The notes under the pieces were generated by a model. That model was not told where the DNA came from. It worked only from the letters and a program-made list of their open reading frames with translations, and ran no database searches. This document shows positions 51,573 through 53,270 of a stretch of DNA of 64,000 bases, in pieces. Both the position numbers and the translations under genes were made by a program. The DNA lies in contig CH464491.1 in NCBI GenBank assembly GCA_000002445.1, forward strand, positions 1,152,001-1,216,000. The letters are read 5' to 3'. The stretch comes from Trypanosoma brucei. Lineage: Eukaryota. The stretch's first letter is position 1; each line of letters starts with the position of its first letter.

Positions 51573-53270
51573 CTAGTCACGACGATCTCTCGAGCGGCGC
51601 TTGCGGTTCCTCTTGGAGGAAGCTGAACGTTGACGATTAGCTTTGCGACGCCGTACAACATCTTCCCTTTCCTCCTCTTCTCCCTCCTGATACTCGTCTT
51701 CCGACTCGTCTTCGTCCGCGGTAGCCTCATCCTCTTCTCGGTCGCGGTCCACATCCCTCGAGCGGCGGCTCCTGCGATCGGAGGCGCGGCGGCCCTTTGC
51801 ACGATTAGACTCGTGTCGCAATTCCGCAGCTTCTTCTTCATCTGTGCCGGACACCTCTTTTTCATCATTTGTTGACTCTGCGGAACGCTTCTTCGACTCT
51901 GAAGTCCTCTTTCCTTTGTGGTTTTCTTCCTCCTGATCCTCAGACCTATGCTTACGACGGGGGTTCGGTGATTGGCGCCTCCCTTCCTGCTTGTCTTCTT
52001 CGCGCTCCTCCGCCTGTTGGTGCTCCTCTTCGTCCCGCTTTCCCTCTTCATGATGCTTGTCTGCATTTTGCTTCTCTTCTTCCTTGTGCTCCTTTTCCTG
52101 CTTTTCTGCGTCATGTTGCTCAACTTTTTCCTCATGAAGTGGCTTTTCTCCTTCGTTGGCTGACTCTGCAGAGGTTGCATTTTCCTGCTCATGAGTTTGG
52201 TTTTTGTTGGTCTCGTCGTTCTTAGCAACGTTCTCCTCTGTCACGGCTTCGTGATGATTCGCCGACTCCTCTACCGGAGTTGTCCTTGAGTATACGTCGT
52301 GATCGTATTTCTCACCTTCAATCGGCATGGTGTGCACAAAAGCAATATCATGGTTATCGGAATAACCTCCCGTAGCCGCAGTGATCCCAATATAATAATC
52401 CTTGCTGTCTGTTTTCAGCTGCACTGAAACAGAGGTACACAGCGTCTCATCTTCCTCCGCAGAATTTGATAGATACACGCGAAGGGTTTCATTTTTATAC
52501 TGCAGGCGCGCTGTAGAGAATTTGGCCGATGTCTGACGGAAAGCGTACTCACAACTCCCCACGTGCTCATTCTTGAAGTCATTTGATGTGGTGTACTCCC
52601 GGTTCTCACTTCCCTCGGCGTTATAAAGGACATATACCGCTGGGTTGTTGCCAGCCCCATCATTGTCGAAAGTATCGAACACTACTCCAACACCTTGAAA
52701 ATCCATTGGGTGCCCCATCAGCGGGCCGGTGGCATTCTGAGGAGATGACGTTAGCCAAATGGCGAAACCGTCCGCTGGGTAACGTGCCGTGCCATGTAAG
52801 TGAAATCCAACAATAATTTCAAAAGAGGGCATATCGAGGGCCTCTCTGTTCCACATGTATCCTTCCTGATCTCTGTAGTTTCCAGTGAGACGAACGTGAT
52901 CATCGGTAACAACAGCGGTACCGCCAACAAACCAGTGCTCTAAACCCTCGCCCCCGTAGTAGTTACGGAGCAGTGGTGGAGTGAATGAGTGGTGCTCGAT
53001 AACCTTCTCAATGGTGCGATGCATTTGACTCCCCGTAAGTTTTGGACTCGCGGATGCCGCTGCCGGAGAAACGACCGTCGCAAAGATGGCAAGTAGAAGA
53101 AGTTGTGATAACGGAAAGAACACCCCGCGGTAAACTGAAGCAGTGTGCTTGCCGCCACTTTCCTTCTGGTTCATCCTATATGAGACGCCCTGGTGCACGA
53201 TGGCCGACATCGAGTGTGCGCTCACTTCCCTTTCTCGCTTGCGGAACAAGACGACAGTTCGACCCCTCAC
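51573..53270 (-). CDS. L-type (legume-like) lectin domain protein of the ERGIC-53/LMAN family with signal peptide and a long charged E/K/R/D/S tail; no C-terminal TM (565 aa; likely start Met at 53174)
   Basis: The lectin blocks are GFHLHG...ADGFAIW, FDTFDNDGAGNNPAV (ERGIC-53 FDSFDNDGKKNNPAI) and GITAATGGYSDNHDIAFV (ERGIC-53 GISAATGGLADDHDVLSF). A hydrophobic signal LSQLLLLAIFATVVSPAAASASP follows the second Met. Confidence 0.75.
   Translation of the reverse strand: MRGRTVVLFRKREREVSAHSMSAIVHQGVSYRMNQKESGGKHTASVYRGVFFPLSQLLLLAIFATVVSPAAASASPKLTGSQMHRTIEKVIEHHSFTPPLLRNYYGGEGLEHWFVGGTAVVTDDHVRLTGNYRDQEGYMWNREALDMPSFEIIVGFHLHGTARYPADGFAIWLTSSPQNATGPLMGHPMDFQGVGVVFDTFDNDGAGNNPAVYVLYNAEGSENREYTTSNDFKNEHVGSCEYAFRQTSAKFSTARLQYKNETLRVYLSNSAEEDETLCTSVSVQLKTDSKDYYIGITAATGGYSDNHDIAFVHTMPIEGEKYDHDVYSRTTPVEESANHHEAVTEENVAKNDETNKNQTHEQENATSAESANEGEKPLHEEKVEQHDAEKQEKEHKEEEKQNADKHHEEGKRDEEEHQQAEEREEDKQEGRRQSPNPRRKHRSEDQEEENHKGKRTSESKKRSAESTNDEKEVSGTDEEEAAELRHESNRAKGRRASDRRSRRSRDVDRDREEDEATADEDESEDEYQEGEEEEREDVVRRRKANRQRSASSKRNRKRRSRDRRD

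What the first reader, a model, noticed from the sequence alone, without database searches (positions are those of the whole stretch)
51573..53270. ERGIC-53-like L-type lectin lacking transmembrane anchor and KKxx signal, ending in a 200-aa RS/acidic hyper-charged tail
The carbohydrate-recognition domain is clearly of the ERGIC-53/VIP36 cargo-receptor type. Those receptors are type I membrane proteins with a C-terminal TM and cytosolic di-lysine/di-aromatic COPI/COPII motifs. Here the lectin domain follows a cleavable-looking signal peptide. The remainder is a hydrophilic E/K/H/D-rich region ending in RRSRRSRDVDRDRE...RKRRSRDRRD with no hydrophobic segment. That would make it a soluble luminal or secreted lectin with an RS-like tail, an odd combination, or indicate a cryptic frameshift removing the anchor.
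Basis: partly seen in the sequence, partly recalled or inferred. Interest (0 to 1): 0.55.

Follow-up and report, generated by a model that had tools for sequence, protein, structure and literature searches.

The report
Anchorless ERGIC-53-like lectin of trypanosomes
This is the Trypanosoma brucei gene already studied as "TbERGIC53" (Tb927.11.4200): a sugar-binding protein of the secretory pathway that truly lacks the membrane anchor and sorting signals of its animal counterpart, a lineage-wide trait already partly described for its T. cruzi and Leishmania relatives.

Summary
The minus-strand ORF 51573..53270 is real, but the coding sequence most likely starts at the first ATG (53210), giving 545 aa. 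It has an N-terminal hydrophobic signal, an ERGIC-53/VIP36-type L-type lectin domain with an intact sugar/Ca2+ site, and a 248-aa hydrophilic tail with no hydrophobic segment. Published RNAi and C-terminal tagging primers for "ergic" (Tb927.11.4200) match the window exactly. The tagging primer abuts the last codon, and the tagged protein was seen on western blots. The tail is therefore translated in this frame, and a frameshift is excluded. Every Trypanosoma, Porcisia, Phytomonas and Angomonas orthologue recovered also lacks a C-terminal anchor. A 46-member neighbour-joining clade has no genuine C-terminal anchor, against 77 of 97 sequences outside it. The "RS-like" end is not an RS domain. 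It is a conserved module of basic, acidic (with Tyr) and basic blocks, preceded by a short leucine-heptad helix in non-salivarian relatives. Most likely this is a soluble lumenal (partly secreted) Ca2+-dependent glycan lectin of the ER-exit/Golgi route. The TriTryp-specific tail and missing KKXX were published in 2006 and 2015, so novelty is low. The useful point is a correction, because recent papers still introduce it by reference to the transmembrane mammalian receptor.

The parts
51573..53210 (-). Coding sequence of Tb927.11.4200 ('TbERGIC53'; older ID most likely Tb11.02.1680, an equation not checked directly), 545 aa plus TAG stop at 51573-51575
   Evidence: ORF. First ATG after the upstream polypyrimidine/AG sites. 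100% identical to database protein P0001. Published RNAi primers for Tb927.11.4200 match exactly at 52676-52694(-) and 52179-52196(+).
53211..53270 (-).
   Evidence: No ATG in it. Database orthologues start at MSAIV. A pyrimidine tract plus AG ends near 53271 (read from the sequence; the splice site is inferred).
53049..53210 (-). N-terminal signal sequence, aa 1-54: 29-aa basic n-region, hydrophobic core VFFPLSQLLLLAIFATVV, then small-residue c-region SPAAASA before the invariant P56
   Evidence: Kyte-Doolittle peak 2.16. Orthologues in T. vivax, T. cruzi and T. conorhini have short classical signal peptides at the same place. Cleavage was not tested because no signal-peptide predictor was available.
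52320..53000 (-). L-type (legume-like) lectin carbohydrate-recognition domain, aa 71-297
   Evidence: Pfam PF03388 E=6e-41. ERGIC-53 CRD E=3e-31. Foldseek target TM-score 0.79. Equivalents of D121, F154, D155, N156, D157, N161, N162, D181, G251, G252 and the C190-C230 disulfide are kept; H178 is replaced by Thr.
52290..52340 (-). Clade-specific conserved linker FVHTMPIEGEKYDHDVY (aa 291-307) right after the CRD
   Evidence: F291 V292 H293 T294 P296 E298 G299 Y302 D303 H304 D305 V306 are invariant in 7 Trypanosoma sequences. Related Y-D-H-D-V-Y motifs occur in more distant clade members. No function tested.
51804..52289 (-). Fast-evolving hydrophilic Glu/Lys/His-rich spacer (aa 308-469), no Cys, no hydrophobic segment, no DNA repeats
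   Evidence: Composition and charge profile. pLDDT below 50 with low-confidence helices. No tandem repeats. Replaced by Gln/Pro-rich spacers in T. cruzi, T. conorhini, T. theileri and Porcisia. All 5 equiperdum/gambiense differences lie in the tail, four of them in this spacer.
51756..51803 (-). Basic block 1 of the terminal module (aa 470-485, RAKGRRASDRRSRRSR), preceded by a degenerate remnant (AAELRHE) of the LxxLExELxELRR helix of other trypanosomatids
   Evidence: Tail comparison.
51660..51755 (-). Acidic block with one Tyr (aa 486-517, DVDRDREEDEATADEDESEDEYQEGEEEERED)
   Evidence: 11 D/E in the best 15-aa window. Equivalent D/E(+Tyr) blocks in T. conorhini, T. theileri, Porcisia, Angomonas and unnamed relatives.
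51576..51653 (-). Arg/Lys-rich C-terminus (aa 520-545, RRRKANRQRSASSKRNRKRRSRDRRD)
   Evidence: 15 R/K in the last 30 aa. At least 8 R/K in the last 30 aa in 17 of the 25 nearest clade members (T. brucei's own entry and the P0072 fusion left out), several of the rest being truncated. The published C-terminal PTP-tag reverse primer matches 51576-51594 and abuts the last codon.

Best explanation
The locus encodes Tb927.11.4200, the Trypanosoma brucei-group member of a kinetoplastid (probably euglenozoan) clade of ERGIC-53/VIP36-type L-type lectins that has lost the stalk, membrane anchor and cytosolic COPI/COPII signals. Shown: the gene identity, the lectin fold, the conserved sugar/Ca2+ site, the absence of any C-terminal hydrophobic segment, the conservation of this architecture across the clade, and translation of the tail through to Asp545. 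Inferred: the N-terminal signal takes the protein into the ER, where it is a soluble lumenal Ca2+-dependent lectin for N-glycans (probably high-mannose). It travels with secretory cargo through ER exit sites and the Golgi towards the flagellar pocket, and part of it is released. It cannot contact cytosolic coats directly. Any concentration or retention must therefore come from the lumenal side. The disordered polyampholyte tail would act as a spacer. Its conserved terminal module (short leucine-heptad helix in most relatives, then basic, acidic/Tyr and basic blocks) would provide self-association for avidity, or electrostatic docking to a membrane partner or anionic lumenal lipid. In function it relates to ERGIC-53 roughly as calreticulin relates to calnexin: a soluble lectin with a charged tail beside a membrane-bound version.
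For: Identity: four published primers for 'ergic' Tb927.11.4200 match the window exactly. CRD. Site residues are conserved, with residue roles taken from PMC3912170. No TM. All Trypanosoma orthologues, Porcisia, Phytomonas and Angomonas are anchorless. Among the phmmer hits, the nearest 25 relatives (E<1e-44; T. brucei's own entry and the P0072 fusion left out) all lack a C-terminal TM, whereas most more distant hits end in TM plus KKxx/KKFF-like tails. The NJ clade of 46 has no genuine anchor, against 77 of 97 outside it. Frame: the PTP tag was fused after D545 and was detected on western and lost on RNAi (PMC8630539). There is also an in-frame indel in gambiense. Lumenal, post-ER location: Tb927.11.4200 is biotinylated by lumenal BiP/BiPN-TurboID, more strongly by the secreted BiPN bait in procyclics (bioRxiv 10.64898/2026.04.03.716285). 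The T. cruzi orthologue is reported at Golgi/flagellar pocket, is antigenic in patients and is found in the trypomastigote exoproteome (PMC5097913; PMC4980737). Tail module conservation.
Against: No biochemical test of solubility, signal cleavage or sugar binding exists for the T. brucei protein. The refolded L. donovani CRD agglutinated red cells, but this was inhibited only by fetuin and not by mannose (PMC4980737), so the specificity may differ. Ser88 is Asp, and the His178 position is Thr in T. brucei. The n-region is long (29 aa) and the hydrophobic stretch 18-23 aa in some orthologues, so an uncleaved signal anchor is not excluded. RNAi gave no growth phenotype in either life stage (PMC2797082, PMC8630539), so no function is demonstrated. 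The heptad helix is degenerate in T. brucei, T. congolense and T. vivax, and the roles proposed for the tail are pure inference. Proximity labelling does not distinguish soluble from membrane-bound proteins.
Confidence: 0.62

Rival explanations
1. Type II membrane lectin. The N-terminal hydrophobic segment is an uncleaved signal anchor, so the protein is still membrane-bound, at the opposite end from ERGIC-53. It would have a short basic cytosolic N-tail that could carry sorting information, with the CRD and charged tail in the lumen.
For: The T. brucei n-region is 29 aa with 4 Arg/Lys, and the hydrophobic stretch is about 18 aa. T. congolense, Porcisia and P0062 have similarly long N-termini or 17-23-aa hydrophobic stretches. 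Macedo 2006 is cited as placing the T. cruzi protein at the flagellar pocket 'membrane'.
Against: T. vivax, T. cruzi and T. conorhini orthologues have short n-regions and classical small-residue cleavage motifs. T. brucei has AAASA before the invariant Pro56. The hydrophobic core proper (LLLLAIFATVV) is only 11 residues. The T. cruzi orthologue is recovered in the exoproteome. N-terminal sequences are not conserved, unlike a functional cytosolic signal.
Confidence: 0.15
2. Primarily a secreted or surface-exposed lectin (adhesin) acting on host or vector glycans. The polybasic C-terminus would serve as a polyanion (heparan sulphate-type) binding site, and the protein would not be an intracellular cargo or quality-control lectin.
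For: There is no ER-retention tetrapeptide (it ends DRRD; T. brucei BiP uses MDDL). The T. cruzi orthologue is an antigen in Chagas patients and occurs in the exoproteome. The L. major orthologue was first flagged in a screen for adhesin-like proteins, judging from the title of reference 8 in PMC4980737. The refolded CRD haemagglutinates. The transcript is abundant in tsetse-stage parasites (PMC4643127).
Against: The clade includes a plant-infecting trypanosomatid (Phytomonas), an insect one (Angomonas) and apparently a free-living euglenid cluster, so its origin predates vertebrate parasitism. The sugar site is that of intracellular high-mannose readers. The T. brucei protein is labelled inside the ER/Golgi lumen. 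Antigenicity maps to the repeats and can arise from lysed parasites.
Confidence: 0.15
3. Sequencing, assembly or annotation artefact: a frameshift or truncation has removed a canonical TM plus KKxx end.
For: The purine-rich tail DNA keeps a second frame open (ORF 51530..52228). Canonical family members outside the clade nearly all end in TM plus KKxx-like signals.
Against: No hydrophobic or KKxx segment occurs in any downstream frame. The alternate frame is also hydrophilic. Independent genomes of at least 9 trypanosomatids show the same architecture. There is an in-frame indel between subspecies. The in-frame C-terminal tag at D545 is expressed.
Confidence: 0.02
4. The Arg/Ser/Asp/Glu-rich end is a true RS-type domain, implying a nuclear or RNA-related moonlighting role.
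For: There is a superficial resemblance of RRSRRSRDVDRDRE to U1-70K-like RD/RS tracts (own knowledge).
Against: Only 7 RS/SR dipeptides occur in the last 100 aa. No RRM or other RNA-binding domain is found. The N-terminal signal sequence and lumenal biotinylation place the protein in the secretory pathway. Orthologues have R/K blocks with Thr/Pro/Ala rather than Ser.
Confidence: 0.02

Closest known systems
TriTryp ERGIC-53/VIP36-like lectins: T. cruzi 'antigenic lectin' (Macedo et al. 2006, Int J Parasitol 36:1473; not held, known here only through PMC4980737 and PMC5097913) and L. donovani LdEg / LmjF.13.0670 (Singh et al. 2015, PMC4980737)
   Same: Same family and architecture: N-terminal CRD, a TriTryp-specific low-complexity C-terminal region, no KKXX, no stalk cysteines, and a separate clade in CRD trees. 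T. cruzi P0006 is 58% identical to the T. brucei protein over the CRD. Among Leishmaniinae, Porcisia P0070 is 42% identical over the CRD.
   Different: The T. brucei tail is Glu/Lys/His-rich without poly-Gln or DNA repeats. The LxxLExELxELRR helix is degenerate. The papers I could read do not state the lack of a TM domain and do not describe the conserved basic-acidic-basic terminal module.
Mammalian ERGIC-53 (LMAN1)
   Same: CRD fold and sequence (E=3e-31; target TM-score 0.79). Mannose-contact residues D121, F154, N156, G251 and G252, both Ca2+ loops and the disulfide are conserved. Early-secretory-pathway location.
   Different: No coiled-coil stalk: only about 230 CRD columns align to full-length 8jpg. 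No stalk Cys, no TM, no KKFF. His178 is replaced. An MCFD2-type partner was not examined.
VIP36 / VIPL (LMAN2, LMAN2L) and yeast Emp46p/Emp47p
   Same: The same L-type CRD (VIP36 E=1e-22; Emp47/46 by fold). Some orthologues (T. congolense, T. cruzi, T. conorhini) carry Asp at the G252 position, as VIP36 does (PMC3912170).
   Different: All of these are type I membrane proteins with short cytosolic tails such as KRFY. The trypanosome protein has neither.
Calreticulin versus calnexin (functional analogy only)
   Same: A soluble lumenal lectin with a long, highly charged acidic tail existing beside membrane-anchored relatives (established knowledge).
   Different: No sequence relationship in the tail, no P-domain, and no KDEL/MDDL-type retrieval signal. 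Ca2+ buffering by the tail is untested.

Membership tests
L-type (legume-like) lectin domain, Pfam PF03388, ERGIC-53/VIP36 type | Sequence and fold match to the beta-sandwich CRD | tested here: met
   PF03388 E=6e-41, 140.7 bits against a cutoff of 24. ERGIC-53 CRD E=3e-31. Foldseek E=1e-18, target TM-score 0.79.
L-type (legume-like) lectin domain, Pfam PF03388, ERGIC-53/VIP36 type | Mannose-contacting residues (Asp121, Phe154, Asn156, Gly251, Gly252; PMC3912170) | tested here: met
   D, F, N, G, G at the aligned positions in T. brucei; D121 is kept in 26 of the 27 clade sequences aligned (Glu in P0076), and N156 and D181 in all 27. Ser88 is Asp.
L-type (legume-like) lectin domain, Pfam PF03388, ERGIC-53/VIP36 type | [quoted passage not shown] | tested here: met
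   D155, D157, N161, N162, D181, C190 and C230 are conserved. The only two Cys in the protein are C220 and C258.
L-type (legume-like) lectin domain, Pfam PF03388, ERGIC-53/VIP36 type | Demonstrated Ca2+-dependent glycan binding | not testable with these tools
   The only data are for the L. donovani CRD: haemagglutination inhibited by fetuin only (PMC4980737).
ERGIC-53-type cycling cargo receptor (type I membrane protein) | C-terminal transmembrane helix | tested here: not met
   Maximum 19-residue Kyte-Doolittle mean after the CRD is -0.8. None is found in orthologues or in other frames.
ERGIC-53-type cycling cargo receptor (type I membrane protein) | Cytosolic di-lysine / di-aromatic COPI/COPII motif (KKFF, KKxx, KRFY) | tested here: not met
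   The protein ends ...RKRRSRDRRD. Orthologue ends are not conserved at the last four residues. Without a TM, the C-terminus would be lumenal in any case.
ERGIC-53-type cycling cargo receptor (type I membrane protein) | Coiled-coil stalk with membrane-proximal cysteines for oligomerisation | tested here: not met
   No Cys in the tail. The tail has pLDDT below 50. Only the CRD aligns to full-length ERGIC-53 8jpg. A two-heptad helix exists in non-salivarian relatives only.
ERGIC-53-type cycling cargo receptor (type I membrane protein) | His178, the proposed pH/Ca2+ switch for cargo release (role from own knowledge) | tested here: not met
   Thr in T. brucei; Pro, Thr, Ala, Val, Lys, Ile or Gly across the clade.
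ERGIC-53-type cycling cargo receptor (type I membrane protein) | Cleavable N-terminal signal peptide | tested here: inconclusive
   A hydrophobic N-terminal segment followed by AAASA is present, but no dedicated predictor was available and the n-region is long.
TriTryp ERGIC-53/VIP36-like lectin clade (Macedo 2006; Singh 2015) | CRD followed by a trypanosomatid-specific hydrophilic low-complexity C-terminal region without KKXX | tested here: met
   description in PMC4980737.
TriTryp ERGIC-53/VIP36-like lectin clade (Macedo 2006; Singh 2015) | CRD groups with trypanosomatid sequences, apart from ERGIC-53 and VIP36 | tested here: met
   The nearest phmmer hits are all trypanosomatid or anchorless relatives. 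NJ clade of 46 (no bootstrap).
TriTryp ERGIC-53/VIP36-like lectin clade (Macedo 2006; Singh 2015) | Golgi / flagellar-pocket localisation | not testable with these tools
   Indirect only: preferential labelling by the secreted BiPN-TurboID bait in procyclics.
SR/RS-domain proteins | Extended alternating Arg-Ser tract plus RNA-binding domain | tested here: not met
   7 RS/SR dipeptides in the last 100 aa. Pfam finds only lectin domains.

The most novel reading that the evidence does not exclude
The conserved terminal module is a previously unrecognised lumenal sorting or assembly device. It consists of a short leucine-heptad helix followed by basic, acidic(+Tyr) and basic blocks. It would let a cargo lectin work without any membrane span or coat-binding signal. 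It could do so by charge-driven self-assembly into multivalent particles, or by docking onto anionic lumenal lipids (GPI precursors, inositol-phosphoceramide) or an unknown membrane partner. If so, Euglenozoa would sort glycoproteins at ER exit with a receptor built on a different principle from ERGIC-53.
Probability: 0.15. Interest if true: 0.6.

Novelty: already known. Interest (0 to 1): 0.3.

Why it matters
Trypanosomes export huge amounts of N-glycosylated, GPI-anchored coat protein. How they select cargo at ER exit sites is only partly understood. The protein listed as their 'ERGIC-53' cannot work like ERGIC-53, because it has no membrane span and no way to touch COPII or COPI. Recent papers still introduce it through the transmembrane mammalian receptor, so stating this plainly changes how RNAi, proximity-labelling and localisation data for Tb927.11.4200 should be read. 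It also points experiments at the conserved lumenal tail module. Beyond that correction the finding is ordinary: a known, annotated gene of a clade whose unusual tail is already in the literature.

Tried and rejected
(1) Frameshift or displaced exon. I translated all three frames downstream and the overlapping alternate-frame ORF 51530..52228; no hydrophobic or KKxx segment was found. Rejected.
(2) RS domain. Dipeptide counts and the Pfam scan were negative.
(3) DNA tandem repeats in the tail. None were found. The T. brucei tail is low-complexity but not repetitive, unlike the repeats described for T. cruzi and Leishmania.
(4) Full-length protein search. It was saturated by low-complexity words and gave only 8 hits. 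The CRD-only word-indexed search missed the kinetoplastid relatives. The exhaustive phmmer search solved this.
(5) Search for the second T. brucei L-type lectin listed by Field et al. 2010 as 'Vip36' (Tb10.20.0130), to see whether a membrane-anchored paralogue could act as partner. The profile search returned only metazoan VIP36 in the 120 rows shown, and the old ID is in no held paper. Unresolved.
(6) Naming the unnamed clade members. Three cluster look-ups yielded only Porcisia, Phytomonas, Angomonas and a Eutreptiella cluster. The rest are unnamed transcriptome or metagenome sequences, so the taxonomic breadth beyond Euglenozoa is unknown.
(7) The Eutreptiella member P0210 has a C-terminal half that looks like frameshifted junk and was not used.
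(8) Macedo et al. 2006 is not in the library. Its content is cited second-hand.
(9) AlphaFold on 7 sequences gave a usable CRD only; the tail is low confidence.
(10) No signal-peptide or TM predictor was available. Kyte-Doolittle windows were used instead.
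Full report
What is there. The minus-strand ORF 51573..53270 is real. It sits in a run of minus-strand genes (31 kb to 64 kb) that converges on a plus-strand run (1 to 29.5 kb), which is typical trypanosome polycistronic organisation. The first ATG is at 53210, preceded by pyrimidine tracts and AG dinucleotides that look like trans-splice acceptors (read from the sequence). From that ATG the product is 545 aa. It is 100% identical to a T. equiperdum protein and 99% to the T. 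b. gambiense protein, both annotated 'lectin, putative'.

Identity with a studied gene. Field et al. 2010 listed Tb11.02.1680 as the T. brucei 'ERGIC53 orthologue' (PMC2797082). Later papers use Tb927.11.4200 for 'ergic/ERGIC53'. I did not check directly that the two IDs are the same gene. Table S1 of PMC8630539 gives the primers for Tb927.11.4200. The RNAi pair matches the window exactly at 52676-52694(-) and 52179-52196(+). The C-terminal PTP-tagging pair matches at 52074-52092(-) and 51576-51594(+). No chance matches are expected in shuffles. The window gene is therefore Tb927.11.4200.

The lectin domain. Pfam PF03388 matches aa 71-297 with E=6e-41. The best solved structures by sequence are ERGIC-53 CRDs (E=3e-31) and then VIP36 (1e-22). 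An AlphaFold model built on a shallow 7-sequence alignment has pLDDT 70-89 in the CRD. It superposes on ERGIC-53, VIP36 and Emp46/47 CRDs with target TM-scores of 0.74-0.80. Satoh et al. (PMC3912170) list the mannose contacts as Asp121, Asn156, Gly251, Gly252, Leu253 (backbone), Phe154 and Ser88, and the Ca2+ loops as residues 155-161 and 176-185.

I aligned the protein with human ERGIC-53 and a database vertebrate ERGIC-53 (P0122). T. brucei keeps D121, F154, D155, N156, D157, N161, N162, D181, G251, G252 and the disulfide. Ser88 is Asp, and His178 is Thr. No member of the clade has His at that position. The CRD therefore looks like a competent Ca2+-dependent glycan binder. The histidine proposed (own knowledge) as the pH switch of ERGIC-53 is missing.

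No anchor, and not by accident. The only hydrophobic stretch is the N-terminal one. After the CRD the best 19-residue Kyte-Doolittle mean is -0.8. None of the three frames downstream of the stop, nor the alternate open frame inside the tail (51530..52228), encodes a hydrophobic or KKxx segment. T. congolense, T. vivax, T. conorhini, T. cruzi (truncated record) and T. theileri orthologues all lack a C-terminal hydrophobic segment.

An exhaustive phmmer search with the CRD found 1310 relatives. Leaving out T. brucei's own entry, the 26 nearest (E<1e-44) contain no C-terminal TM. The one exception by the crude test, P0072, is a 2810-aa fusion with a mid-protein hydrophobic stretch. More distant hits mostly end in a TM helix followed by KKLY, KKFF or KRFY-type tails. 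Named members of the near group are Porcisia hertigi (Leishmaniinae), Phytomonas, Angomonas deanei and a cluster containing a Eutreptiella (euglenid) transcript.

In a neighbour-joining tree of 143 CRDs (no bootstrap), a clade of 46 around the T. brucei protein has no genuine anchors. Outside it, 77 of 97 sequences have one. T. equiperdum and T. b. gambiense differ at five positions, all in the tail, and one is an in-frame single-codon indel. Finally, the published PTP tag was fused directly after the last codon. The reverse primer starts at 51576, and the stop is at 51573-51575. The fusion was detected on western blots and disappeared on RNAi. The tail is translated in this frame to Asp545, so the frameshift idea is excluded.

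What the tail is. It is 248 aa, with 31% Asp+Glu, 22% Lys+Arg, 13 His, net charge -23, 5% hydrophobic residues and no Cys. Its DNA has no tandem repeats, and AlphaFold confidence is below 50. Right after the CRD is a motif invariant in Trypanosoma, FVHTMPIEGEKYDHDVY. Related Y-D-H-D-V-Y motifs occur in distant clade members. The middle of the tail evolves fast: Glu/Lys/His-rich in salivarian trypanosomes, Gln/Pro-rich in T. cruzi, T. conorhini, T. theileri and Porcisia.

The end of the tail is conserved in pattern. Most relatives have a two-heptad amphipathic helix, for example LEQLEKELAELRR or LRELQRELDELKR. It is followed by a basic run, an Asp/Glu block that usually contains Tyr, and an Arg/Lys-rich C-terminus. 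T. brucei keeps the three charge blocks: aa 470-485 basic, 486-517 acidic with Tyr507, and 520-545 basic. The helix is degenerate. The last 100 aa hold only 7 RS/SR dipeptides, and no RNA-binding domain is present.

What is known experimentally. RNAi of the gene gave no growth or VSG phenotype in bloodstream forms (PMC2797082). It gave none in procyclics either, and no SLS induction (PMC8630539). The transcript is abundant in tsetse-stage T. b. gambiense (PMC4643127). Lumenal BiP/BiPN-TurboID labels the protein, more strongly with the secreted BiPN bait in procyclics. The authors take this to indicate an ER-exit-site/ERGIC position (bioRxiv 2026).

For relatives, Macedo et al. 2006 is cited in PMC4980737 and PMC5097913. 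It described the T. cruzi protein as a patient-recognised antigen with a lectin domain plus repeats and poly-Gln. It is expressed in all stages and located near the flagellar pocket and Golgi. It also appears in the trypomastigote exoproteome. Singh et al. 2015 described the L. donovani homologue and 15 TriTryp members as a separate clade. They reported a 'unique C-terminal region', no KKXX and no stalk cysteines. A refolded CRD haemagglutinated and was inhibited only by fetuin. That paper does not contain the word 'transmembrane'.

Most likely mechanism. Shown: a secretory-pathway L-type lectin with an intact binding site, no membrane span, no coat signals and a translated polyampholyte tail, conserved as an architecture across trypanosomatids. 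Inferred: after signal-sequence cleavage it is a soluble lumenal lectin. It binds N-glycans in a Ca2+-dependent way, moves with cargo from ER exit sites through the Golgi towards the flagellar pocket, and is partly released. Because it cannot reach cytosolic coats, any enrichment or retention must be lumenal. The conserved terminal module is the obvious candidate, through self-association for avidity or through electrostatic docking to a partner or an anionic lipid. I put about 0.6 on the soluble-lumenal-lectin model as a whole and much less (about 0.15-0.3) on any specific role for the tail.

Rivals. An uncleaved N-terminal signal anchor, giving type II topology, is the only serious structural alternative (0.15). 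A mainly extracellular adhesin role is possible and not exclusive (0.15). Frameshift and RS-domain readings are effectively refuted.

Comparison and novelty. By domain it belongs to the ERGIC-53/VIP36 L-type lectin family. As a cargo receptor of the ERGIC-53 type it fails four defining features: TM, cytosolic motif, Cys-linked coiled-coil stalk and His178. It belongs to the TriTryp lectin clade already described in 2006 and 2015, and the gene itself has been knocked down and tagged. I did not find three things stated in the papers available to me. They are the explicit absence of a membrane anchor, the conserved helix/basic/acidic/basic terminal module, and the extension of the anchorless clade to a euglenid cluster and many unnamed relatives. 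These are refinements, so I file the finding as already known, with modest interest as a correction to how 'TbERGIC53' is currently described.

Limits. No dedicated signal-peptide or TM predictor was available. The NJ tree has no support values. Most clade members are unnamed. The putative second T. brucei L-type lectin ('Vip36', Tb10.20.0130) could not be retrieved. Macedo 2006 was not readable.

Noticed in passing
window 51530-52228 (-): A 232-aa alternate-frame ORF overlaps the tail-coding DNA and is itself Lys/Arg/Ser/Thr-rich. It looks like a by-product of the purine-rich coding strand and not a gene, and it carries no hydrophobic segment.
   Followed up: partly
window 49027-50643 (-): The downstream neighbour is an M24 metallopeptidase-fold protein (Pfam PF00557, E=4e-9) with an N-terminal Arg/Ser-rich extension (MGRGYSNSRSRSLRPTLRMKRNRSMS...). 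That extension is closer to an RS tract than anything in the lectin.
   Followed up: no
window ~29500-31200: Convergent strand-switch region: large ORFs are on the + strand up to 29466 and on the - strand from 31244 onward. GC skew changes sign there and local GC rises to 0.56. ARAGORN finds no tRNA genes anywhere in the window.
   Followed up: partly
window 37068-40775 (-): A 1235-aa ORF with an N-terminal C2 domain and YbjQ-like domains (PF23025, PF23128; E about 1e-65), i.e. a C2CD5-like protein. It is unrelated to the finding.
   Followed up: no
window 53271-53650 (-): Two pyrimidine-rich tracts, each followed by AG, lie upstream of the ATG at 53210 (around 53530-53650 and 53275-53320). 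They are candidate trans-splice acceptor regions. No ATG lies between them and 53210.
   Followed up: partly
proteins P0064, P0066, P0068, P0071, P0073, P0079, P0080, P0084, P0087, P0090, P0094, P0103 (one search hits): A second set of anchorless relatives shares a motif after the CRD of the type (Y)DHD.Y...(D/E)K.(Y/F)W(R/K).K(S/T)PEE, which is absent from Trypanosoma. Their organisms are unnamed (transcriptome or metagenome assemblies).
   Followed up: partly
window 52320-53000 (-), aligned position of ERGIC-53 His178: No member of the anchorless clade has His at the position of ERGIC-53 His178. At the Gly252 position T. congolense, T. cruzi and T. conorhini have Asp, as VIP36 does, while T. 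brucei, T. vivax and T. theileri have Gly, as ERGIC-53 does. This hints at differences in tolerance of glucosylated glycans between species.
   Followed up: partly
literature (bioRxiv 10.64898/2026.04.03.716285; PMC8630539; PMC2797082): Papers using Tb927.11.4200 introduce it by the properties of mammalian ERGIC-53 ('a transmembrane lectin ... in mammals') and do not note that the trypanosome protein has no membrane span or cytosolic tail. A supplementary figure legend of the preprint labels 'ERGIC' as Tb927.3.1760, the same ID it gives for DnaJ_2, which is probably a typing slip.
   Followed up: partly
protein P0072 (2810 aa, EukProt): One clade member is a 2810-aa prediction with the lectin domain at aa 115-372 and a hydrophobic stretch near aa 1556-1587. 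It is probably a gene-model fusion.
   Followed up: no
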